Shown piece by piece: positions 28,644 through 57,289 of a DNA stretch of 64,000 nucleotides. How positions within the stretch are numbered: the first letter of the stretch is position 1; the number at the start of each line of letters is the position of its first letter. The position numbers were made by a program, and so were the translations under genes. A model generated the notes under the pieces. It was not told the DNA's origin. It ran no database searches and saw only the letters and a list, made by a program, of their open reading frames with translations. The DNA lies in the IMG/VR virus record IMGVR_UViG_3300028833_000109, positions 32,350-96,349 of that record; one strand, given 5' to 3'. Source of the stretch: a virus (lineage: Duplodnaviria > Caudoviricetes).

Positions 28644-29279
28644 ATGGCAGATTCAACTATTGTAAAGAAAGCGTCTTTGCAGCCCAATGTCTTTGAAGGC
28701 ATTAGCGCAATTTTCGCCGTTGAAGGTGGTTTCACTTTCAGCGGCTCTGCGGCAAACGGCTTCACTCTGTCTCTTGCAGAGAACAAGACTTTGCTTGAGT
28801 TCCCCTGCTCCGAGGATAGCGGTTTCAGTTTCGACACTGGTGCTCCCTCAATCGAGCACTTCAAGGTTCATGGTTTGAACGCCGACTGGGTATCCACGTT
28901 CACCCCTGGTGACACCGAGTTGAGCATCGAGATTCCCTGCCACGACACGCAGATTATGCAGTTGTGTTTCGGTTCGGAAGGTGCTGACACGCAGATCACC
29001 CTGCCTGTCGGTGCGTTGAAGACCCCAAACATTGTAACCGCTATCGCAAGCGGCAAGTCATTTGGTGCTGCGCAGAAGTCCGTTGAGCTCGGTCTGCTCA
29101 TCCTCGATGACACCGAGCAGCGTTTGTTCTACGTCAAGAAGGCAAAACTTACCGCACAGGTGACCTTCGACGGCAGCAACAAGCCTCTCTGCGTTGTGCT
29201 GAGTGGTTCGCTCTCCGAGTCTGGTGACGGCGCGTTCGGTATCTTGGATATTGCAACCACCACCACCTCTAACGGCTAA
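28644..29279 (+). CDS. major tail tube protein
   Basis: 211-aa beta-rich protein; synteny before the chaperones and TMP. Confidence 0.7.
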   Translation: MADSTIVKKASLQPNVFEGISAIFAVEGGFTFSGSAANGFTLSLAENKTLLEFPCSEDSGFSFDTGAPSIEHFKVHGLNADWVSTFTPGDTELSIEIPCHDTQIMQLCFGSEGADTQITLPVGALKTPNIVTAIASGKSFGAAQKSVELGLLILDDTEQRLFYVKKAKLTAQVTFDGSNKPLCVVLSGSLSESGDGAFGILDIATTTTSNG

Positions 29280-29371: not shown

Positions 29372-29923
29372 ATGAAGAAAAAGGAAATTCCAGAGCAAGT
29401 GCTTGAGCAACCGACCCTCGATGCACAGCAGGCGTACCTGTCGCTTATAAACAATGACCCCACCGAGGTGCAGGTTCTCCGTACGAGCAAGAAATACAAG
29501 GTGCGCTGGCTCAAAAACGGGCAGTTGGAGAAACTCACCCGACTGCTGATTAAGGCAGGCAAAACCGATAATGTCAAGTCGTCGGGCATTGACGCTCTTG
29601 ACGAGATTTTGCAGGACTGCAAGCTGGCCTGCAAAGCAGCGGCCATCATCACGCTCAACGGCTACTGGTCAGTCAAGTTCAAGTACTGGTTCCGTTGGAG
29701 ATGGTTCTACTACATCCGTCAGTACGACAACATCCAGTTAGACGCTATCCTCGACATCGGCAAAAAAAAAGTTCCGCTGATGCAGTACTACAGGACTATC
29801 ATGTCCTTGACCGAGGCGAGGGATTCGCTGATGAGGATGAGAGCGAAGGAAGTAGACGCTACCCTTCAAGAACTAAGTATGGCGCAGCGTTCGCAGACCG
29901 AAAGCAACTCCAGTGGCTCGTGA
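29372..29923 (+). CDS. tail assembly chaperone (gpG-like)
   Basis: synteny; A9 slippery run at 29762-29770. Confidence 0.65.
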   Translation: MKKKEIPEQVLEQPTLDAQQAYLSLINNDPTEVQVLRTSKKYKVRWLKNGQLEKLTRLLIKAGKTDNVKSSGIDALDEILQDCKLACKAAAIITLNGYWSVKFKYWFRWRWFYYIRQYDNIQLDAILDIGKKKVPLMQYYRTIMSLTEARDSLMRMRAKEVDATLQELSMAQRSQTESNSSGS

Positions 29924-30216
29924 TGCCGAGGGATTACTTCGGCTTTTGGAGAGTGCCTATGTACGAGTACTATTGGGGTTGCACTGCGGCTCAAATACAG
30001 TTAATGATGGCAGATTGCCCGTTAACGCTCTACAAGAGGCACGACCCTAACGAAGGCAAGAAGCCAGGCGACCCAGGCTGGGTTTCCGACCCGAAGAAAC
30101 TTGACGCGGCTGTCGAGAAGTGGAAGAAGCGCAAGAAGGCGAGAGAAGAGCGGGGTTTCGACCTCAACAAGTTATTGAACACTGGCGAGAAAGTTCCTGT
30201 CGAAAAAGAACAATGA
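29764..30216 (+). CDS. tail assembly chaperone extension (gpT-like, -1 frame)
   Basis: the -1 frame is open from before the A9 run to 30216; a TGATG-coupled ATG also exists at 29923. Confidence 0.55.
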   Translation, partial: KKSSADAVLQDYHVLDRGEGFADEDESEGSRRYPSRTKYGAAFADRKQLQWLVMPRDYFGFWRVPMYEYYWGCTAAQIQLMMADCPLTLYKRHDPNEGKKPGDPGWVSDPKKLDAAVEKWKKRKKAREERGFDLNKLLNTGEKVPVEKEQ

Positions 30217-30458
30217 CCGTCTATGATATTGTGTCGCTTAACCGCGAACTGCTGAAAAGACTGCACAAAAACGGCATTAAGACCGATGACTACAAATGGC
30301 TTGATTTATACAACGATTACATGCAGATGAAAGCCGAAGGCAATAAGACAAGTTACATTGTCGCAAAACTTTCTTGCAGGTATAAAGTGTGTGAGCGTCA
30401 AGTGTTTAAAGTGGTCAAAAAGATGGGTCAAAACTGCCAAAAACGTGCAGTGAAATGA
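30213..30458 (+). CDS. small HTH-like DNA-binding protein
   Basis: 81 aa; C-terminal YIVAKLSCRYKVCERQVFKVV resembles a helix-turn-helix. Confidence 0.55.
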   Translation: MTVYDIVSLNRELLKRLHKNGIKTDDYKWLDLYNDYMQMKAEGNKTSYIVAKLSCRYKVCERQVFKVVKKMGQNCQKRAVK

Positions 30459-30493
30459 CAAAGGATTATGTTACGATATAGGGTTTGGTGTGG

Positions 30494-30501
30494 TAATTTT
30501 G
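30494..30501 (+). promoter_or_regulatory. -7 promoter element for the 30.5-33.4 kb module
   Basis: TAATTTTG followed by an A-rich leader. Confidence 0.6.
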
Positions 30502-30558
30502 CCATGTCGATGCGCATAGACAAATTAACTAACACAAACTTTAAATCTAACACAAACA

Positions 30559-31443
30559 ATGGCTGAAATTTATCAGTTGCCTGACAACGGCAGCAACAAT
30601 GGTAGCAACATTCCTTTTTCAATTCCTATCGGTGGTTTCAATGGTGGCGGTTTCGGTTTCGGAAACGGCATGAACGGCATCGCTGATTTGTTCGGTCTCG
30701 CAATCATCGCCTCGATGTTCGGTTGGGGCAACGGAGGCTGGGGCAACGGTTTCATGGGCGGCGGCAATGCAGGCACTGCATACCTCGGCAACATGATTTC
30801 CAACGACAGCGGTCGTGAACTGGTCATGAACGCCATCACCTCGCAGGGTGAGGCAAGCCGCAGCGCAATCCAGAACCTCGCAACCACCATCGGCCAGGAC
30901 TTCAACCTCGTGAATGCCGGTGTCACCAACGTGCAGAACGCGCTCAACACCCTCGCATTGCAGAATGCAGTGAGTGTTCCTCAGATCATCAACGCCATCC
31001 AGAGTGGTGATGCAAGCCTTGCAAGCCAGTTGTGCAAGTGCTGCTGCGACAACCAGTTGGCCATGTGTCAGCAGACGAATGCCCTACAAACGCAGGCTGA
31101 CCGCAACGCCAATGCTTTGATGCAGGCCATCAACGCTCAGACCGTTGCGATGAACGACCAGTTCTGCGCCTTGAAGGAGCGTGAGTTGCAGTCGAAGATT
31201 GACACGCAGGCCGACATCATCACCCAGTTGCGCGGACAGATTGACAACGCCAACCAGACCGCAGCCATCACGGGTTATGTCAACGGACTCGTTGCTCCCT
31301 TGCAGGCCAAGGTGACCGAGATTGCTGATAAGATGCCTTCGACTGTGCCGGTTCAATGGCCTCAGTTGACCGCAGTCAACACCACACCCTATGTGAATGG
31401 CGGTTTTTACGGCAATGGCTTTGGCAACAACGTAATGTTTTAA
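30559..31443 (+). CDS. Gly/Asn-rich, TM-containing coiled-coil protein with CCC motif (unknown function)
   Basis: GFGFGNG / hydrophobic helix / GWGNGGWG, CKCCCD, then Q/N-rich heptads. Confidence 0.8.
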   Translation: MAEIYQLPDNGSNNGSNIPFSIPIGGFNGGGFGFGNGMNGIADLFGLAIIASMFGWGNGGWGNGFMGGGNAGTAYLGNMISNDSGRELVMNAITSQGEASRSAIQNLATTIGQDFNLVNAGVTNVQNALNTLALQNAVSVPQIINAIQSGDASLASQLCKCCCDNQLAMCQQTNALQTQADRNANALMQAINAQTVAMNDQFCALKERELQSKIDTQADIITQLRGQIDNANQTAAITGYVNGLVAPLQAKVTEIADKMPSTVPVQWPQLTAVNTTPYVNGGFYGNGFGNNVMF

Positions 31444-31446
31444 GTC

Positions 31447-31779
31447 ATGGGATGTTTCAATGTAATAACTAACGTCAACGGAGCGCCTTACATCGCCACT
31501 ACCAATGTGACGGTCGGAACGGATGCAGTGGACTTTGCGCTGGGTTTCCATCGCTTGCAGCCTGTCGGCTATTTCACCGTCAGGATTGCCAATGCGATTC
31601 CAACGGGAACAACGGCGACACTGCCCATCACGTTGACCATGAACGGCACGACCCGCAACCTGACCACGTTCAACGGCACACAAGTGACCGCTGGCGACAT
31701 CACTGGAACGGGCGTACTGCTTGTTTTCAATGACAGGTACAACGGTATTCTCCAACTCATGTCGGTGGCTACCGCTTAA
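31447..31779 (+). CDS. small Thr-rich all-beta protein
   Basis: 110 aa with alternating beta-strand pattern. Confidence 0.7.
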   Translation: MGCFNVITNVNGAPYIATTNVTVGTDAVDFALGFHRLQPVGYFTVRIANAIPTGTTATLPITLTMNGTTRNLTTFNGTQVTAGDITGTGVLLVFNDRYNGILQLMSVATA

Positions 31780-31812
31780 CCAAGTGACTAACAAACAATA
31801 AACAAATTAACT

Positions 31813-32322
31813 ATGGATTTCAACAGTTTAACAGAGGGCAATCCGTTCTACATTCTCCGCAAAGGTGAGAAACCTACGCTTGATGTAGGTGTCGTCAAGA
31901 GTAAATCACAACCCAGGGCGAAGTACCAGATGCAGACCCCTGGCGTGATGAACGGTCTGCTTGCGCAACAGCAGCAGGTCATCGACATCATGGTTACCGT
32001 CAACGGCAAAGACGAGCAGTTTGCGGAACTGCCGTTGAACATCGAAATCGCCTCAAGGGGCGACAACACGTTCAGCGGAAGCCGTGAGGCGATGTTGCAG
32101 GCGGTGGACGCGATGTTGCAGACATCGAAGAAAGCAATCGAGCAGGTTCCTTACCACAAAGCGGTTATCACCGAGAGCGAGAAGATGCTTGAAACGCTAA
32201 ATCCACGCTATGCGGAAGAAAAGCGACAGGCAAGGACGATTAAAGACCTCAAGGACAGGCAGGATGCTACCGAACAGAAACTCGATGAGATTCTTGAGAT
32301 CATCCGCGAGTTCAAGAAATGA
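31813..32322 (+). CDS. hypothetical protein, C-terminal coiled coil
   Basis: 169-aa ORF with A-rich start region. Confidence 0.7.
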   Translation: MDFNSLTEGNPFYILRKGEKPTLDVGVVKSKSQPRAKYQMQTPGVMNGLLAQQQQVIDIMVTVNGKDEQFAELPLNIEIASRGDNTFSGSREAMLQAVDAMLQTSKKAIEQVPYHKAVITESEKMLETLNPRYAEEKRQARTIKDLKDRQDATEQKLDEILEIIREFKK

Positions 32323-32353
32323 CGAAGAAGTCCGACTAAAACACTGAAACATT

Positions 32354-32584
32354 ATGCCTTACATCATTATCAATAACGACGACAACGAGCAGATGCGCGA
32401 GAATATGCGTCAGCAGATGCGTGGCGGTTACCGCCGCAACATGCCGATGCGCCGCAACGCGACCGACCAGTACGAAGAGGGCTATAGAAACGGCTACAAA
32501 CACGGCTGGCAAGATGCGGAAGACGAGAGCGAGACTATGATGGAAAACCGTCGCGGCAGGAGCCGTAACGGGCGCTTCATGTGA
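32354..32584 (+). CDS. small Arg/Met-rich protein
   Basis: YEEGYRNGY and C-terminal RRGRSRNGRFM. Confidence 0.7.
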   Translation: MPYIIINNDDNEQMRENMRQQMRGGYRRNMPMRRNATDQYEEGYRNGYKHGWQDAEDESETMMENRRGRSRNGRFM

Positions 32585-32590
32585 TAACTT

Positions 32591-32624
32591 TGGGTCGGAT
32601 GTCGGCTTGATGTCCGACCCATTT
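32591..32624 (+). terminator. internal hairpin/terminator
   Basis: tgggtcgga...tccgaccca followed by tttt. Confidence 0.55.
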
Positions 32625-32638
32625 TCAACCATTTCGGC

Positions 32639-33034
32639 ATGAAACAGTACATCACTGAAGAACGAGCAATGTATGAGGACAACTTCCACGGCATGTTCAG
32701 CCGCAAGTTGGCGAAATGGGCAATCTCCTGCATGGAGATGAAAGGCCCGGACGGGCAGATGAAGCCCGTTACCATGCGCTCCGTGGATGATGTCCTTGAG
32801 ATACTCTCCGCTAACAAGGTGGAACTGCCAGACGAGTACATATATACCGCCTGGTACCTGTTCCACATGGCGATAGCGGACTACCCCAAGTCGCTGAAGA
32901 CCGATGAACAACGTGCGATGTACGTTGAAGAAACGCTTCTTGATCCTGACGGAGAGCCTTCTGATGCGCTCGCTTGCTTTGAGGCGAAGATGTGCAACGC
33001 GGGCATCCCCATCTACTGGGAAAGGATGATGTGA
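32639..33034 (+). CDS. hypothetical helical protein
   Basis: 131 aa; HGMFSRKLAKWAIS...LLDPDG...IPIYWE. Confidence 0.7.
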   Translation: MKQYITEERAMYEDNFHGMFSRKLAKWAISCMEMKGPDGQMKPVTMRSVDDVLEILSANKVELPDEYIYTAWYLFHMAIADYPKSLKTDEQRAMYVEETLLDPDGEPSDALACFEAKMCNAGIPIYWERMM

Positions 33035-33420
33035 TGCAGACGGAGTACGTTGACGTTCGCGGCAAATGGGGCATTGTTCTCTGCTACGACCTTGACTTGG
33101 ATGACGACATAGACATCATGAACTATATGATGTCGCTCGGTTCAGACGAGGAAGGCGCATACAAGGCGGTTAATGTCTTGTTCGGGCAGGAGAACGCGGG
33201 GCTTTGCGTGACCAACATGGCGTTGCGCATGTCCTTGATATTCATCGGCGACGCAGACTCTGCCGAGCAGTGGTGGGATACGCTCTCCCATGAGTTGTAT
33301 CACGCGCAGCAGGCGATAATCGAGTACTACAATGTCCCGCCTGATACTGAAAAGGCGGCATGGACGATGGGGTATTTGATGCGCAAGTCGGTAGAACTCG
33401 TCGCTCCACCGTGCAGGTGA
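33034..33420 (+). CDS. HExxH zinc-metallopeptidase-like protein
   Basis: TLSHELYH with a downstream E (TEKAAW); TGATG coupling. Confidence 0.6.
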   Translation: MQTEYVDVRGKWGIVLCYDLDLDDDIDIMNYMMSLGSDEEGAYKAVNVLFGQENAGLCVTNMALRMSLIFIGDADSAEQWWDTLSHELYHAQQAIIEYYNVPPDTEKAAWTMGYLMRKSVELVAPPCR

Positions 33421-33486
33421 TTGGCAACAAGTTGTATTTTTATACATTTTCCAACCAATGTTCTATAAGCCAACGCTTTGTTGGCT

Positions 33487-33494
33487 TATTTTTG
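33487..33494 (+). promoter_or_regulatory. -7 promoter element for the tape measure gene
   Basis: TATTTTTG about 30 nt before ATG 33524. Confidence 0.55.
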
Positions 33495-33523
33495 CAAGAT
33501 TAATAAACAAATTAACGAAAGAT

Positions 33524-36500
33524 ATGGCACTTGATCCGTTAAAATTTGCGGTGCAAATCACCGATGAAGCATCGGACAAACTGACCGCGATTAAGAGAAA
33601 TCTTGATGCGCTCCAAAACAAGGACATCGCAATCAATGTTTCTGGTAACCTTGGTGACTTCTTGAACTTATTCAAGGAGGGTGTTGACGCATCTAAGTTC
33701 AGTAACTTGAAAGACGCAATCAGCAATGCTTTGAGTGGTGTCGAGGGTCTTAACAAGGCGGCAAAAGAGGGTAATTTTGCCGATTATGCGGCACAAATCA
33801 AACTCGCGTCTGATGCGGTTACCGCTCTTGGCTCTGCGATTTCTGCCGTCAATAATGTTGTAGGCACGAACGAGGGTTTCCAAAAGTTCATGGTCAGCAT
33901 CGGAGAGGTTGTCACGAGGGTTGATGCCGCGCTCAAGCAACTCAACGAAACCACAACATCTGGCGCTAATGCTTCCAGTTCAAAGAGTATTGAAAAGGCC
34001 AAGTACGAACTTTACCAGTTTGACAATCTTGTCAAGCAGGCAGAGCAGACATCTCGTCTCGGCAAGCAGTTCGGAGATGTTGACACGTCGAAACTTGACA
34101 CGGCAATTCAAAAAGCAAAAGAATGGAGAGATGAACTTGAGCAAATCGCTAAAACTGGTCAAGGGAAAGGTGGACGCGGTTTTGACAAGTTTGCACTACA
34201 GGCCGATTACAAACAAGATATTGATCAAGTAAAGAAACTCACCGCAGAGCAGAATACCGCAGAAATCAGCCTTTCCAGATACAACCAGACCCTTAAAGAG
34301 ACAAATGAGTTACAGCAAAGACTTTTAAACGCTACTGGCCGTAGTCTTATTTCTGGCGCTGGAACGACCGATGGCATTGGTGATGCAGGCAATAAAATTG
34401 AAGAGTTTAAAAACAGGCTCAAATCACTTAACGAGGAAGACCAGAAAAACTCACAAATCGTCAATCAGCTTACCGCAGAGTTTCAGCGGTTGAAGCCATC
34501 TCTTACTGCCGCAGCAAAAGAGCAGGAAAGGCTTAATTCGGCAACGGAAAAGGCCAATAAGAAAGCCGCCAACGATGCAGTCAAAAAGCAGCAGCGGGAT
34601 AACGAGAAACTTACTGAGAGTATGCGCGTTGCTGGAAACGAAGCGACAGCACTCGAAATAAAAATCCGAAAACTGAAAGATACCGAGGCCAAAAGCGCAG
34701 CGGTTGGCGTTGACACATCAGAGTTAAAGAACTATATCTTGATGCTTGAGAGATACGCCAATGTCATGCGTAACATTCAGCAGGGATATAACAGGGCAAA
34801 TGCTGGTGATATTCTTTCTGGCAAAACCATGTTTGGTACACACACTTTGCCAGATGTCAAGAAACTTGCGGATGAATCAGAGCGTCTTACCAACGAAAAG
34901 AGGAGAGCCGCATCCGCTACATCCCAACTCACCAACGAAGAGCAACGTCTCGCGCAAGCCTTGAACCAGACAGCAGAAAGCGCAAAGGGTCAGTCTCAAG
35001 TACTCTCTGACCTCAAGTCAATGGCGATGCAGTACCTCGGTGTTTGGGGTGGTCAGCAGTTCTTGCACAACATCATCGAAATCGGTGGTCAGTTGGAGAT
35101 GCAGCGACTTTCCATCGGTGCTATCCTGCAAAACCAGTCGCAGGCAAATGACTTGTTTGAGAAAATCAAGGGTCTTGCCGTTCAGTCGCCTTTCGGTGTT
35201 GTTGAACTCGACCAGATGACCAAGCAGTTGACCGCTTACGGCTTCAAGTACTCCGAACTCTTCGACATGACTAAGCGATTAGCCGACATCAGTGCCGCAA
35301 CTGGTACTGGCGTTGACCGACTCGCCCTTGCATTGGGTCATGTCCGCAGTGAGGCTGCACTTAGCGGTTACACATTGCGTCAGTTCTCTATGGGTAACGT
35401 GCCGCTGTTGCAGAAACTCTCCGAAAAATTGGGCAAGACAACACAGGAAATCCGCAAGATGGTGCGCTCAAAGGAAATCTCCTACGAAGATGTTGAGGGC
35501 GTTATCAAAGACTTGACCAACGAGGGCGGCATGTTCTACAACATGCAGGAAACCATTTCGCAGTCCGTCAAGGCTCGTTTCAAGAACGTGAAGGACGCGA
35601 TGGACATCATGTATGGTGAGATGGCTGAGAGCGGCATGGGCGATGCGTTGAAGAGTATTGCTGATGCCCTTATGGAAATCACAAAGAACTGGAAGGATGT
35701 CGCAACTGTAATCGGTACTGGTGCCGCAATGTGGGCTGCGCATCGTGTTGCGGTGATGGCATACACAACAACACTTGGTAAAACCAATGCAGCAGTACTT
35801 GCGTCTATCGCATCACATAACAAACAAGAAGCATCAATACTGAGTCTTGCAAGCAAGTATCGTGTTCTCACTATAACTGAGCAAGAAAGGCTTGCGGCTG
35901 CGAGAAAGAATATTGTCGTTGACAAACTGCGTCTTTTGCTTGGCAAGACAACAAAAGCGGAACTTGCGGCAAGGGATGCGGCAACAAAGCGACTGTTCTT
36001 ATCAGACATCCAACTCGCAATGTCCGAAAAGAAACTTACAGTTGAGGAATTGGCAAGGCTTGTCGCACTTGGGAAAGTGACCAAAGCAGAAGCGTTGCAG
36101 ATAATCACCAATCTTCAACTCGCAGACTCGGAAAAGATGGTTGCCGCGAATACCATCATGGGAACCAAGCGCCTTGGTACATTTAAAATGGGATTACTTG
36201 CTGTTGGAGGGGCAGCAAAAACAGCAGCACTTGCGCTAAAGTCGCTGATTTTCAATCCTGCAATGCTTGGTATGGCTGCAATTACGGCATTGATTGAACT
36301 TTGGCAGCGTAACAATGCCGAAATGGAGCGAGCCAAGGAACTTGGCAATGCTATCTTTGAAGCATCACAAGAGGGTTTGAAGAACACTCGCACGATGATG
36401 GAGAACACTGGCATTAATGCTTATCAAGCAGACACCAACAGCAAGGGAGAAATGGTGCTCAGAAACCTCACCAAGAGTTTTGGTACGGAGCAGGAAAGTT

Positions 36501-56599: not shown

Positions 56600-57289
56600 A
56601 TGGACAAAAAGAAAAAGACAGCGTTAGCATTGGCATTATTCGCCACGTTATGGTTCATCGTAGGCGGTGTGTGCGGCTTTTTTGCTGCCAAAGGTATCTA
56701 CGACCAACCCATCGTCGAAAGCGTCACACGGGACACGACAACGACAATCGACACCATTCCCGACATCGCACCGACACCGAAGGACAGCACACCAGTGAGG
56801 ACTATCATCCGATGGCTACCCATGAAACTGCCCAAGGCATCTGGGAATAAGGAGAGCGTGGATAATCCCTATCCCGCAAGCACCGACACCATCTCGCAGT
56901 GGCAGTTGTTCGGTAATTCCGAACATCCGCAAGACTCGGCGCTGGTGGAGATACCGATTACATCAAAGCACTACTCATCAGAACAGTATGATGCATGGAT
57001 TTCGGGCTATGAGGCTTCACTGGATAGCATCAAGGTATATAGCAAGGAGACCTTAATCACTGAGCGAGTGGTCGTGAGCAAGCCACCCAATAGGCTGTCG
57101 CTCGACGTTGAGGCAGGTGCAGACTATATTACACAAGCCAAGGACATGGCCACATTCGCATTCGGCGACCTCACATATAAGATAAGAGACAGCCGCTTCG
57201 CCATTGGCTTGCGTGGAGGCATCATCAAGCCGCCAGCAGACAAGGCAGAGCTGTTTGTGGGTGGGGTTATCAAGTTAAGGATATTCTGA
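56600..57289 (+). CDS. putative spanin-like lysis protein
   Basis: N-terminal TM, AWISGY..LDSI motif, C-terminal beta strands ending in F. Confidence 0.55.
   Translation: MDKKKKTALALALFATLWFIVGGVCGFFAAKGIYDQPIVESVTRDTTTTIDTIPDIAPTPKDSTPVRTIIRWLPMKLPKASGNKESVDNPYPASTDTISQWQLFGNSEHPQDSALVEIPITSKHYSSEQYDAWISGYEASLDSIKVYSKETLITERVVVSKPPNRLSLDVEAGADYITQAKDMATFAFGDLTYKIRDSRFAIGLRGGIIKPPADKAELFVGGVIKLRIF

What the first reader, a model, noticed from the sequence alone, without database searches (positions are those of the whole stretch)
30213..33420. Self-contained 7-gene module of unknown function inserted between tail chaperones and tape measure
Seen: an HTH-like gene, then a dedicated promoter and strong A-rich starts for six genes: (1) a 294-aa protein with a Gly/Asn/aromatic low-complexity N-terminus around one hydrophobic helix, a CKCCC motif and a long Q/N coiled coil; (2) a 110-aa all-beta protein; (3) a coiled-coil protein; (4) a 76-aa Arg/Met-rich protein ending RRGRSRNGRFM, followed by a hairpin; (5) a helical protein; (6) an HExxH peptidase-like protein. 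The TMP has its own promoter afterwards, so the block is transcriptionally insulated. From memory, similar GWG/CCC operons recur in gut phages without an assigned function (not verified here). Inference: the parts list (membrane-inserting oligomeric coiled coil, beta cap, nucleic-acid-binding peptide, protease, regulator) suggests a dedicated assembly such as a membrane spike/pore, filament or protective compartment, not a standard virion part.
Basis: partly seen in the sequence, partly recalled or inferred. Interest (0 to 1): 0.75.

Follow-up and report, generated by a model that had tools for sequence, protein, structure and literature searches.

The report
Mobile six-gene membrane-protein cassette, gut phages
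This is a real, self-contained gene cassette inserted into the tail operon of a Prevotella-type phage. Over a hundred unrelated gut Bacteroidales phages, crAss-like ones included, carry the same genes in the same order, and none of its proteins has a characterised relative, so its function is still unknown.

Summary
Seven co-oriented genes lie at 30213-33420: g0, a small HTH-like gene, then g1 to g6. Close relatives of this phage have the tail chaperone running straight into the tape measure gene, so the block is a 3.2 kb insertion.

The order g1-g2-g3-g4-g5-g6 is kept in all 103 loci I fetched from viral contigs and Bacteroidales genome assemblies. These have otherwise unrelated backbones: siphovirus tail operons, ends of lysis cassettes, crAss-like phages.

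- **g1** has a Gly-rich head, one hydrophobic helix, long helices and a near-invariant Cys-Cys-Cys (one Cys invariant). After the scaffold-like p221, it is the non-reference gene whose codon usage is closest to the capsid and tail-tube genes.
- **g3** is an SH3-like barrel plus helices.
- **g4** is an Arg/Gly/Tyr-rich peptide.
- **g5** is DUF7841.
- **g6** is a small stand-alone zincin (HExxH plus Glu).

Nothing matches a known lysis, virion, defence or replication family. The only relative in a well-studied phage is T5.077 of phage T5, and that link is distant and uncertain.

My best reading is a mobile accessory operon that builds an abundant, membrane-anchored, cysteine-linked assembly acting on the host envelope late in infection. 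The mechanism is inferred, not shown. This scan has found the same cassette many times on other DNA.

The parts
30213..30458 (+). g0: 81-aa HTH-like small protein. Its start overlaps the stop of the tail-chaperone frameshift product (ATGA).
   Evidence: phrog_17790, E 7.5e-27. Weak Mor-family match to the C-terminal HTH, E 0.01, below cut-off. A homologue lies directly in front of g1 in 33 of 103 loci; elsewhere a different small protein of HTH-like appearance by eye (no family match) takes this place.
30494..30501 (+). Bacteroidota-type -7 promoter box TAATTTTG, 58 nt before the g1 start
   Evidence: The motif is not enriched in the window as a whole (39 hits against 34 expected), but 3 of the 5 plus-strand hits in 24-41 kb fall in the three short gaps of this block. 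Promoter function is inferred.
30559..31443 (+). g1: 294-aa lead protein. Gly/Asn/aromatic head, hydrophobic helix at about 41-56, helical body, CKCCC at 159-163, Gly/aromatic tail.
   Evidence: phrog_16490, E 2.9e-27. More than 7000 relatives in metagenomes, none with a Pfam domain. C163 is invariant, and C161 and C162 are kept in at least 90% of sequences. Low-confidence AF2 model, all helical. After the scaffold-like p221, it is the non-reference gene whose codon usage is closest to the capsid and tail-tube genes.
31447..31779 (+). g2: 110-aa Thr/Val/Asn/Gly-rich protein with a Cys at position 3. It starts 3 nt after the g1 stop.
   Evidence: phrog_31654, E 3.7e-13. Present in 85 of 103 loci; missing or replaced by an unrelated 136-180 aa protein in the rest. 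35 of 54 homologues have one Cys, and the listed N-termini often carry a Cys at residue 2-4. Fold not tested.
31813..32322 (+). g3: 169-aa protein, an N-terminal SH3-like beta barrel followed by three helices
   Evidence: phrog_28898, E 9.6e-29. AF2 pLDDT 87.7. The barrel resembles EF-P domain I and Tudor/chromo barrels at Z 5-6.5 only. Foldseek finds only unnamed phage proteins.
32354..32584 (+). g4: 76-aa Arg/Met/Gly/Tyr-rich peptide with a conserved C-terminal RRxRDSRGR-like motif
   Evidence: Conservation profile. A second sequence type in this slot (cluster c27) ends in the same motif. Its codon usage is next after g1's among non-reference genes.
32591..32621 (+). 13-bp hairpin followed by AUUUUC, between g4 and g5. 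It splits the operon 4+2.
   Evidence: -22.4 kcal/mol, z -5.6, 0 of 200 shuffles as stable.
32639..33034 (+). g5: 131-aa DUF7841 protein
   Evidence: PF25223, 31.1 bits against a cut-off of 25.2. The Bacteroides phage C3_41T2LP homologue scores E 5.3e-16. phrog_38431.
33034..33420 (+). g6: 128-aa stand-alone zincin-like protein. Its start overlaps the g5 stop (TGATG).
   Evidence: H86, E87, H90 and E106 are invariant in 39 sequences. Only sub-threshold Pfam hits: M78, SprT-like, DUF6782. 1220 clusters of relatives; the 150 best listed are 76-177 aa. No fused forms found.
33465..33489 (+). 10-bp terminator-like hairpin with a U-run after g6. It overlaps a second -7-like box, TATTTTTG (33487-33494), ahead of the probable tape measure start at 33524.
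   Evidence: -15.1 kcal/mol, z -4.3.

Best explanation
**What it is (well supported).** This is a mobile, self-contained accessory operon of the 'moron' type. In this phage it has landed between the tail assembly chaperone and the tape measure gene. It travels as a unit among unrelated phages of gut and rumen Bacteroidales.

**How it most likely works (inferred).**
- g1 is made in large amounts and sits in the host cytoplasmic membrane by its single hydrophobic helix.
- g1 oligomerises through its long helices and is linked covalently or through a metal at the near-invariant Cys-Cys-Cys.
- g2 (N-terminal Cys), g3 (SH3-like barrel plus helices) and g4 (Arg/Gly/Tyr-rich tail) are made from the same strongly translated first half and are its stoichiometric partners.
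- g5 (DUF7841) and g6 (small zincin) lie behind an attenuating hairpin with weak leaders. They are probably made at low level as a processing or regulatory pair, perhaps trimming g1 or g4.
- g0 or an equivalent small HTH protein controls the unit.

The assembly acts on the infected cell's envelope, not on the virion. It most likely acts around the end of infection, for example by stabilising or timing envelope breakdown, or by protecting the cell and its progeny. That would explain why it works in any phage backbone and so often sits beside lysis genes.
For: **Insertion.** Relatives with 65-69% identical capsid protein have the chaperone directly followed by the tape measure gene.

**Unit.** All 103 g1 loci are colinear. 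g3 is in 92, g5 in 84 and g6 in 68, despite truncated contigs.

**Backbone independence.** g1 stays 60-75% identical in contigs where no capsid, tail-tube or tape measure similarity to this phage is detectable. The context varies: tail operon, after holin and p229, before endolysin, crAss-like late regions.

**Own signals.** A -7 box precedes g1, and there are two strong hairpins.

**Late gene set.** g1, g3 and g5 carry in-frame TAG or TGA in stop-codon-recoded phages. A review states that crAss-like phages use such recoding mostly in late structural and lysis genes (PMC10136315).

**Abundance.** g1 and g4 rank next after the scaffold-like p221 among non-reference genes in codon usage closest to the capsid and tail-tube genes. 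g1, g3 and g4 have A-rich leaders.

**Membrane.** A hydrophobic helix is conserved across the family. It is strongly hydrophobic in crAss-type, T5 and other distant members. A second small protein downstream of g6, found in 8 loci, shares the g1 head (hhalign 95%).

**Not a known system.** No hits in PADLOC, NCBIfam or PDB sequence searches, and only DUF7841 in Pfam.
Against: - No experiment exists for any member, and no paper was found.
- The orientation of g1 in the membrane cannot be called. There are almost no Lys/Arg on either side of the helix (0.14 each). If the helical body is periplasmic, g2-g6, which lack signal peptides, cannot touch it.
- The hydrophobic helix of this subfamily is only moderately hydrophobic (mean 1.67).
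- The codon-usage argument comes from one genome.
- Only 13 of 103 loci have recognisable lysis genes within 4 kb, and 17 have tail genes. Adjacency to lysis genes may only reflect a shared 'end of late operon' position.
- T5.077, the possible T5 relative, lies in T5's early region (from memory), which does not fit late timing.
- This phage already has a separate holin, endolysin and candidate spanin at 55.5-57.3 kb.
Confidence: 0.4

Rival explanations
1. Accessory virion component. g1 would be a cysteine-linked fibre, decoration or ejection (pilot-like) protein, and g2-g4 its tip, chaperone or packaged partners. g6 would mature it by removing the hydrophobic head.
For: - The cassette lies in late or tail operons.
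- Its codon usage resembles that of the capsid and tail-tube genes.
- Homologues are annotated 'viral fiber' or 'spike protein' in crAss-like records.
- A g1 homologue lies alone next to tail proteins in two viruses assigned to Methanomassiliicoccales.
- The architecture recalls the phiX174 H pilot protein: Gly-rich hydrophobic N-terminus, then Gln/Asn-rich helices (from memory).
- Zincin domains in phage polyvalent proteins are proposed to process proteins packaged into phage heads or delivered into the host (PMC5512222).
Against: - The cassette moves intact between siphovirus and crAss-like backbones that share no detectable structural proteins, while g1 stays 60-75% identical. A virion part would have to dock on unrelated partners.
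- The hydrophobic helix is strongly membrane-like in many members.
- The tblastn searches returned no phicrAss001 record, and that crAss-like virion has been solved (from memory).
- The 'fiber' and 'spike' labels are unverified annotation.
- No match to any solved virion protein.
Confidence: 0.17
2. Inter-phage competition or superinfection exclusion. The membrane-anchored g1 assembly would block DNA entry or adsorption by other phages, or shield progeny from receptor-bearing debris. Single-gene membrane morons such as HK97 gp15 or T5 Llp do this.
For: - The architecture is moron-like, with a host-type -7 box, so it could be expressed independently of the late programme.
- It encodes a membrane protein and is accessory and highly mobile.
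- Known exclusion morons sit in tail operons (established knowledge of HK97 gp15, from memory).
- At the same site, relative L129 carries a different cassette, again with a membrane-anchored Gln/Asn-rich protein ending in a Cys-rich tail.
Against: - Six conserved genes, including a peptidase, are far more than known exclusion functions need.
- Recoded stops place the genes in the late set in recoded phages.
- There is no PADLOC match beyond a weak hit to the helical part of g3 (PDC-M05B, E 5e-5).
- crAss-like carriers are not known lysogens.
Confidence: 0.15
3. Cytoplasmic scaffold or condensate. The body of g1 would face the cytoplasm (N-terminus out). With its Gly/aromatic ends and the Arg/Gly/Tyr-rich g4, it would form a membrane-tethered meshwork or condensate that organises replication or assembly, as the membrane protein p16.7 of phi29 does (from memory).
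For: - The short N-tail is acidic and free of Lys/Arg (2.8 Asp/Glu against 0.6 Lys/Arg). Tails of that kind can be translocated.
- g2-g6 have no export signals, so a cytoplasmic g1 body is the simplest way for all six to meet.
- Low-complexity Gly/Phe/Tyr/Trp and Arg-Gly sequences are typical of phase-separating proteins (general knowledge).
- The SH3/Tudor-like barrel of g3 lies next to an RG-rich peptide.
Against: - T5.077 and the two Methanomassiliicoccales-virus members have long, highly charged N-terminal regions that should stay in the cytoplasm, which would put the body outside.
- Many conserved Cys, and Cys-rich tails in crAss-type members, fit an extracytoplasmic, disulfide-linked protein better.
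- There is no evidence of nucleic-acid binding.
Confidence: 0.12
4. Spanin-type lysis component. g1 would be an inner-membrane-anchored helical protein that bridges or fuses the two membranes at lysis.
For: - An N-terminal hydrophobic helix, then a helical body with conserved Cys, as in i-spanins.
- The head is Gly-rich and resembles a fusion peptide.
- The cassette lies directly after holin and p229, or next to endolysin, in at least 13 loci and in crAss-like phages.
Against: - There is no lipoprotein partner: g2 has no signal peptide or lipobox.
- In this window the cassette is 22 kb from the lysis genes.
- The lysis cluster already has p229, which has an N-terminal anchor and a beta-rich C-terminus ending in Phe. 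p229 homologues sit next to the cassette in several loci without replacing it.
- Five cytoplasmic partner genes would be left unexplained.
Confidence: 0.07

Closest known systems
T5.077-T5.079 operon of Escherichia phage T5 (T5.077 = phrog_8119; function unknown)
   Same: T5.077 (321 aa) has the same layout as g1: a Gly-rich region, a hydrophobic helix, a GFGGFG stretch, Gln/Asn/Ala-rich helices and a Cys-Cys-Cys motif (ECCCE). It is the first gene of a small operon with its own annotated promoter and terminator, followed by a low-complexity protein and a Cys-rich peptide. hhalign of the g1 profile against T5.077 gives 92% probability, E 5e-7, over the head and first helices. It matched 223 phage records, mostly from Salmonella and Escherichia.
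   Different: Homology is only suggestive. An HMM of the g1 family scores T5.077 at 14.2 bits with heavy composition bias. That is above all 2000 global shuffles (maximum 9.4) but is nearly equalled (14.0) by the best of 2000 local-composition shuffles. T5 has three genes, not six, and no g3, g5 or g6 counterpart was seen. The operon lies in T5's tRNA region, not among late genes. It is also uncharacterised, so it explains nothing yet.
Phage 'morons': single accessory genes with their own promoter and terminator inserted in late operons, e.g. lambda lom and bor, HK97 gp15 (from memory)
   Same: The cassette is inserted between two adjacent genes of a conserved late operon and is absent from close relatives. 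It has promoter-like and terminator-like signals of its own. It is accessory and includes a membrane protein.
   Different: It is a co-inherited six- to seven-gene unit, not a single gene. It has no sequence relation to any described moron product. It appears in the late, recoded gene set of crAss-like phages, not as a lysogenic-conversion gene.
Spanins (lambda Rz/Rz1, T1 gp11) and lysis-cassette accessory genes
   Same: g1 has an N-terminal membrane helix, a helical body and conserved cysteines. The cassette is often adjacent to holin or endolysin genes.
   Different: There is no outer-membrane lipoprotein partner. The cassette is not in the lysis cluster here. The phage has its own candidate spanin. 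There are five extra cytoplasmic genes and no sequence or profile match.
Zincin-like metallopeptidase domains of phage and plasmid polyvalent proteins (Iyer et al. 2017, PMC5512222)
   Same: g6 has the defining HExxH helix followed by a helix with a conserved Glu (description). The homologue in Bacteroides phage C3_41T2LP is annotated 'PolyVal metallopeptidase superfamily'.
   Different: g6 is a stand-alone protein of about 130 aa and was never found fused. No Pfam peptidase family reaches its cut-off. No substrate is known.
phiX174 H (DNA pilot) protein (from memory, not tested by sequence)
   Same: A Gly-rich hydrophobic N-terminal helix followed by long Gln/Asn-rich helices that oligomerise.
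   Different: The tblastn searches with g1 returned no microvirus records. g1 is not shown to be in virions. g1 has Cys motifs that H does not.

Membership tests
Moron-type accessory insertion | Lies between two genes that are adjacent in close relatives | tested here: met
   In L114, L118, L119 and L123-L125 the chaperone frameshift product is followed within a few to 25 nt by the tape measure gene. In the window, 3.3 kb intervene.
Moron-type accessory insertion | Own promoter and terminator | tested here: inconclusive
   TAnnTTTG boxes lie at 30494 and 33487, and hairpins at 32591-32621 and 33465-33489 with z -5.6 and -4.3. There are no transcript data. g0 is translationally coupled to the tail operon (ATGA overlap).
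PHROG 16490 / 31654 / 28898 / 38431 (unknown-function phage families) | Significant HMM match over most of the protein | tested here: met
   g1 E 2.9e-27, g2 3.7e-13, g3 9.6e-29, g5 2.3e-12.
Pfam DUF7841 (PF25223) | Score above the gathering threshold of 25.2 bits | tested here: met
   g5 scores 31.1 bits, E 3e-7. The C3_41T2LP homologue scores 59.3 bits.
Zincin-like metallopeptidase superfamily | HExxH motif plus a downstream Glu as the third zinc ligand | tested here: met
   H86, E87, H90 and E106 are invariant in 39 sequences.
Named peptidase families (M78 ImmA/IrrE, SprT-like, DUF6782, PolyVal MPTase) | Pfam score above the family cut-off | tested here: not met
   The best hits are far below the cut-offs: M78 in 6 of 39 members, best E 0.0019; SprT-like 5 of 39; DUF6782 5 of 39. 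No PolyVal model was among the 25 families listed of 30.
T5.077 family (phrog_8119) | Sequence homology beyond composition | tested here: inconclusive
   hhalign gives 92.4%, E 5e-7, over 101 columns. The HMM gives 14.2 bits, against a maximum of 9.4 for global shuffles and 14.0 for block shuffles, 2000 each. The CCC motif and domain order are shared.
Two-component spanin | Partner outer-membrane lipoprotein with signal peptide and lipobox | tested here: not met
   No module protein other than g1 has a hydrophobic N-terminus. g2 starts MGCFNV with no signal sequence.
Two-component spanin | Type II topology (N-in, periplasmic helical body) | tested here: inconclusive
   Lys/Arg counts are 0.14 on both flanks of the helix. 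Distant members have charged N-tails that suggest N-in.
Known anti-phage defence systems (PADLOC) | Match to a defence-system protein model | tested here: not met
   Only weak hits on helical segments: g3 to PDC-M05B at E 5e-5, g1 to NsnC at 0.0098, and g1 to ZorA_2 at 17 bits against a cut-off of 100.
Virion structural proteins | Similarity to a solved or annotated head or tail protein | tested here: inconclusive
   There are no significant PDB sequence hits for g1, g3 or g6. The g3 fold search gives only generic small barrels at Z 6.5 or less. The g1 model is too poor to search (pLDDT 48). g2 and g5 were not folded.

The most novel reading that the evidence does not exclude
The cassette encodes an undescribed kind of phage-built cellular structure. 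This would be an abundant, membrane-tethered, cysteine-stapled helical lattice, intermediate-filament-like in layout, with Gly/aromatic ends and an Arg/Gly/Tyr-rich partner. It would have its own small protease and regulator. Phages as different as T5, crAss-like phages and Bacteroidales siphoviruses would install it in the host envelope to control the physical state of the infected cell or of what it releases.
Probability: 0.15. Interest if true: 0.85.

Novelty: categorically new. Interest (0 to 1): 0.62.

Why it matters
The g1 family has more than 7000 members at E 0.001 or better in public metagenomes, and the g6 family has 1220 clusters at 50% identity. The cassette sits in crAss-like phages, among the most abundant viruses of the human gut, and in many Prevotella and Bacteroides prophages. 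Even so, none of its six proteins has a characterised relative.

A unit that is this conserved, this mobile and apparently this highly expressed must do something important for phage fitness in the gut. It is a gap in our parts list for phage infection of Bacteroidota.

It can be tested. A cultured carrier exists (Bacteroides phage C3_41T2LP on B. uniformis). If the distant link to T5.077 holds, the E. coli/T5 system offers simple genetics.

Tried and rejected
- **DNA search.** blastn of the block against 50,697 phage records found no match.
- **Family libraries.** Pfam, NCBIfam and PADLOC on all seven proteins gave only DUF7841, plus sub-threshold noise from helical segments: FliJ, PilO, FliH, ZorA, MakB, PDC-M05B. 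I did not use these.
- **PDB sequence and profile searches** for g1, g3 and g6 found nothing significant.
- **AF2 of g1** with 51 sequences gave pLDDT 48, unusable for fold search.
- **Fold searches for g3.** Foldseek against PDB and BFVD and the wide VIA search gave only unnamed phage relatives and generic SH3/Tudor/EF-P-like barrels.
- **ESM Atlas** for g2 and g1 returned only the proteins' own viral clusters, or nothing.
- **Fused forms.** I looked for fusions of g1 and g6 that might name a function. There was one partial hit for g1 and none for g6.
- **Hosts outside Bacteroidota.** Six genome-assembly contigs are labelled Treponema, Clostridiales, Erysipelotrichaceae, Acholeplasmatales, Bacilli or Lachnospiraceae. 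The Acholeplasmatales contig is crAss-like. The Erysipelotrichaceae contig has almost no long standard-code ORFs, so it is likely a recoded phage. I treat these two labels as likely binning errors and did not check the other four.
- **L129 variant.** Its 194-aa membrane protein is not homologous to g1 by hhalign. It is analogous only.
- **Canonical coiled coil.** Rejected for most of g1.
- **Cysteine parity.** 39 even against 17 odd, which does not settle the location.
- **Literature.** Searches for DUF7841, T5.077, T5p075 and crAss 'viral fiber' found nothing relevant.

Full report
**What is there.** It has a standard late region: terminase and portal on the minus strand, then capsid, tail tube (28644-29279) and a tail chaperone with an overlapping frameshift ORF (29372-30216). 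Further on come a 2332-aa tape measure protein (phrog_9959), distal tail proteins and a separate lysis cluster at 55.5-57.3 kb. Six of them match PHROG families, all of 'unknown function'. The only Pfam family above its cut-off is DUF7841, for g5.

**The block is an insertion.** I searched viral contigs with the chaperone protein. This returned 20 loci. In those with 65-69% identical capsid protein and 60-74% identical chaperone (L114, L118, L119, L123-L125), the chaperone frameshift product is followed by the tape measure gene within a few to 25 nt. Only the closest relatives (over 90% identical chaperone) carry the block. One relative, L129, has at the same site a g0-like gene followed by a different cassette. 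That cassette again starts with a membrane-anchored Gln/Asn-rich protein ending in a Cys-rich tail, and includes a Cys-rich beta-type protein. By hhalign it is not homologous to g1.

**The block is a conserved, mobile unit.**
- g1 has more than 7000 relatives at E 0.001 or better in the 5.8-billion-protein collection, none with a Pfam domain.
- I fetched 72 viral loci and 31 loci from Bacteroidales genome assemblies.
- In all 103 the detectable module genes are colinear. g2 is in 85, g3 in 92, g5 in 84, g6 in 68, and a g0 homologue sits in front in 33. Many loci are cut by contig ends, and g4 is too short for tblastn.
- The surroundings differ. In some loci it lies between chaperone and tape measure. 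In others it lies between tape measure and distal tail protein, directly after holin and a p229-like protein, before an endolysin, or at the end of the late operon facing replication genes.
- Annotated records show the same string in Bacteroides phage C3_41T2LP, in Dulem virus 40 and in a dozen crAss-like phages of two families, often beside holin or endolysin genes.
- g1 stays 60-75% identical in contigs where no capsid, tail or tape measure similarity to this phage can be detected. This argues that the unit does not depend on a particular virion.
- HNH homing endonuclease genes are inserted between g2 and g3, or next to the unit, in several loci. This may help it spread.
- Six assembly contigs carry non-Bacteroidota labels. 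One of them is a crAss-like contig and another looks like a recoded phage contig; the other four were not checked.

**Expression signals.**
- A Bacteroidota-type -7 box (TAATTTTG) lies 58 nt before g1.
- A 13-bp hairpin (-22.4 kcal/mol, z -5.6) with a U-run follows g4.
- A 10-bp hairpin (-15.1 kcal/mol, z -4.3) follows g6 and overlaps a second box (TATTTTTG). This lies 30 nt before an in-frame ATG at 33524, which is the more likely tape measure start.
- The box is not enriched in the window overall, so promoter function is inferred.
- g0 overlaps the chaperone stop (ATGA). g2 starts 3 nt after g1. g6 overlaps g5 (TGATG). A-rich leaders precede g0, g1, g3 and g4 but not g2, g5 or g6.
- After the scaffold-like p221, g1 and then g4 are the non-reference genes whose codon usage is closest to the capsid and tail-tube genes, out of 35 genes scored.
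- Together these suggest a strongly made first half (g1-g4) and a weakly made second half (g5-g6).
- In stop-codon-recoded phages the module genes carry in-frame TAG (six in g1, three in g3) or TGA. A review states that crAss-like phages use such recoding mostly in late structural and lysis genes (PMC10136315). The unit therefore belongs to the late set there.

**The proteins.**
- *g1.* A Gly/Asn/aromatic head, a hydrophobic helix, a conserved block of short helices (76-150, periodicity 3.67), long helices to about residue 258, and a Gly/aromatic tail. C163 is invariant, and C161 and C162 are kept in at least 90% of sequences. Distant members (crAss-type, and two viruses assigned to Methanomassiliicoccales) have a much more hydrophobic helix, five to six further conserved Cys, and Cys-rich C-terminal tails. 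Orientation in the membrane cannot be called from flanking charges. No fused forms exist.
- *g2.* A small Thr/Val/Asn/Gly-rich protein. Most homologues have a single Cys, often at residue 2-4. Its slot is sometimes empty or filled by an unrelated protein.
- *g3.* It folds with confidence (pLDDT 87.7) into an SH3-like barrel plus three helices. Only generic barrels match (Z 6.5 or less).
- *g4.* An Arg/Met/Gly/Tyr-rich peptide with a conserved RRxRDSRGR-like end. A second sequence type in the same slot keeps this end.
- *g5.* DUF7841.
- *g6.* It has invariant HExxH plus a Glu 16 residues on, the zincin signature as described in PMC5512222. It reaches no named peptidase family and forms its own family of 1220 clusters of small stand-alone proteins.
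- *A further small protein.* A 121-aa protein downstream of g6 in eight loci shares the g1 head (hhalign 95%).

**Relation to phage T5.** Earlier follow-ups in this scan named T5.077 as a distant relative, and I checked this. T5.077 has the same order of features as g1, including ECCCE. It heads a three-gene operon with an annotated promoter and terminator and matched 223 phage records, mostly from Salmonella and Escherichia. hhalign gives 92% probability. My shuffle control is less clear. The score is 14.2 bits, above all global shuffles, but the best of 2000 local-composition shuffles nearly equals it at 14.0. I call the link probable but unproven. T5.077 is uncharacterised as well.

**What it is not.**
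- It matches no defence system and no NCBIfam family.
- It has no solved relative.
- It is not a canonical spanin pair. There is no lipoprotein partner, and this phage has its own holin, endolysin and a candidate spanin-like protein, p229.
- It is unlikely to be a core virion part, given its backbone independence.

**Most likely mechanism and rivals.** I commit, at about 0.4, to an accessory operon that builds an abundant, membrane-anchored, cysteine-linked g1 assembly with partners g2-g4 and a low-level processing or regulatory pair, g5-g6. It would act on the infected cell's envelope late in infection.

| Reading | Confidence |
|---|---|
| Envelope-acting accessory operon (main reading) | about 0.40 |
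| Accessory virion fibre or ejection set | 0.17 |
| Superinfection exclusion | 0.15 |
| Cytoplasmic membrane-tethered scaffold or condensate | 0.12 |
| Spanin-type lysis role | 0.07 |

All steps beyond 'conserved mobile unit with a membrane protein and a zincin' are inference.

**Verdict.** This is an undescribed, widespread phage gene system of unknown function. The scan has met it many times on other DNA, and earlier follow-ups reached the same open verdict.

Noticed in passing
window 56600-57289 (+): This 229-aa protein lies directly after the endolysin (phrog_26448, unknown function). It has an N-terminal Lys-rich membrane anchor, a Pro/Thr-rich linker and a beta-rich C-terminus ending KLRIF, which resembles an outer-membrane beta-signal. 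It may be a single-chain spanin equivalent of Bacteroidales phages. Homologues sit next to holin genes in many related loci.
   Followed up: partly
window 33458-33526: The longest ORF of the tape measure gene starts at 33458, inside the terminator-like hairpin after g6. An in-frame ATG at 33524 with an A-rich leader, about 30 nt after a TATTTTTG box, is the more likely start.
   Followed up: partly
L129:7625-11300: A relative of this phage carries, at the same chaperone/tape-measure junction, a g0-like gene followed by a different cassette. It encodes a 194-aa membrane-anchored Gln/Asn-rich protein ending ECPCDGGCGCNG, a 151-aa Cys-rich beta-type protein starting MNC, and several small proteins. 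It is analogous to g1 and g2 but not homologous by hhalign.
   Followed up: partly
L007, L015, L023, L031, L032 (between g2 and g3); L006, L001 (flanking): HNH homing endonuclease genes of about 205 aa are inserted inside or next to the cassette in several phages. They are usually on the opposite strand.
   Followed up: no
L064/L065, L002, L003 (TAG); L059, L063, L066, L068, L077 (TGA): Module genes contain in-frame stop codons in these loci: up to six TAG in g1 and one or two TGA in g5. These are therefore stop-codon-recoded phages in which the cassette is part of the recoded gene set.
   Followed up: partly
L048:7212-7577 and seven other loci, just downstream of g6: A 107-146 aa protein carries a copy of the g1 head (the LFDLFGLGIIGSMF helix with Gly-rich flanks) behind its own helical N-terminus. 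It may be a membrane partner, or a competitor, of g1.
   Followed up: partly
L078 (BK063680) and L079 (NC_092586): Two viruses assigned to Methanomassiliicoccales hosts carry a g1 homologue (phrog_16490; the first has two CCC motifs) without g2-g6. It lies next to a tail protein and, in one of them, a reverse transcriptase, perhaps of a diversity-generating retroelement. The host assignment was not checked.
   Followed up: no
L098 (JAGCWW010000084, 'Acholeplasmatales' MAG), L095 ('Erysipelotrichaceae' MAG): The large proteins of L098 match crAss-like phages. L095 has almost no long ORFs in the standard code. These contigs look like phage contigs binned into the wrong genomes.
   Followed up: partly
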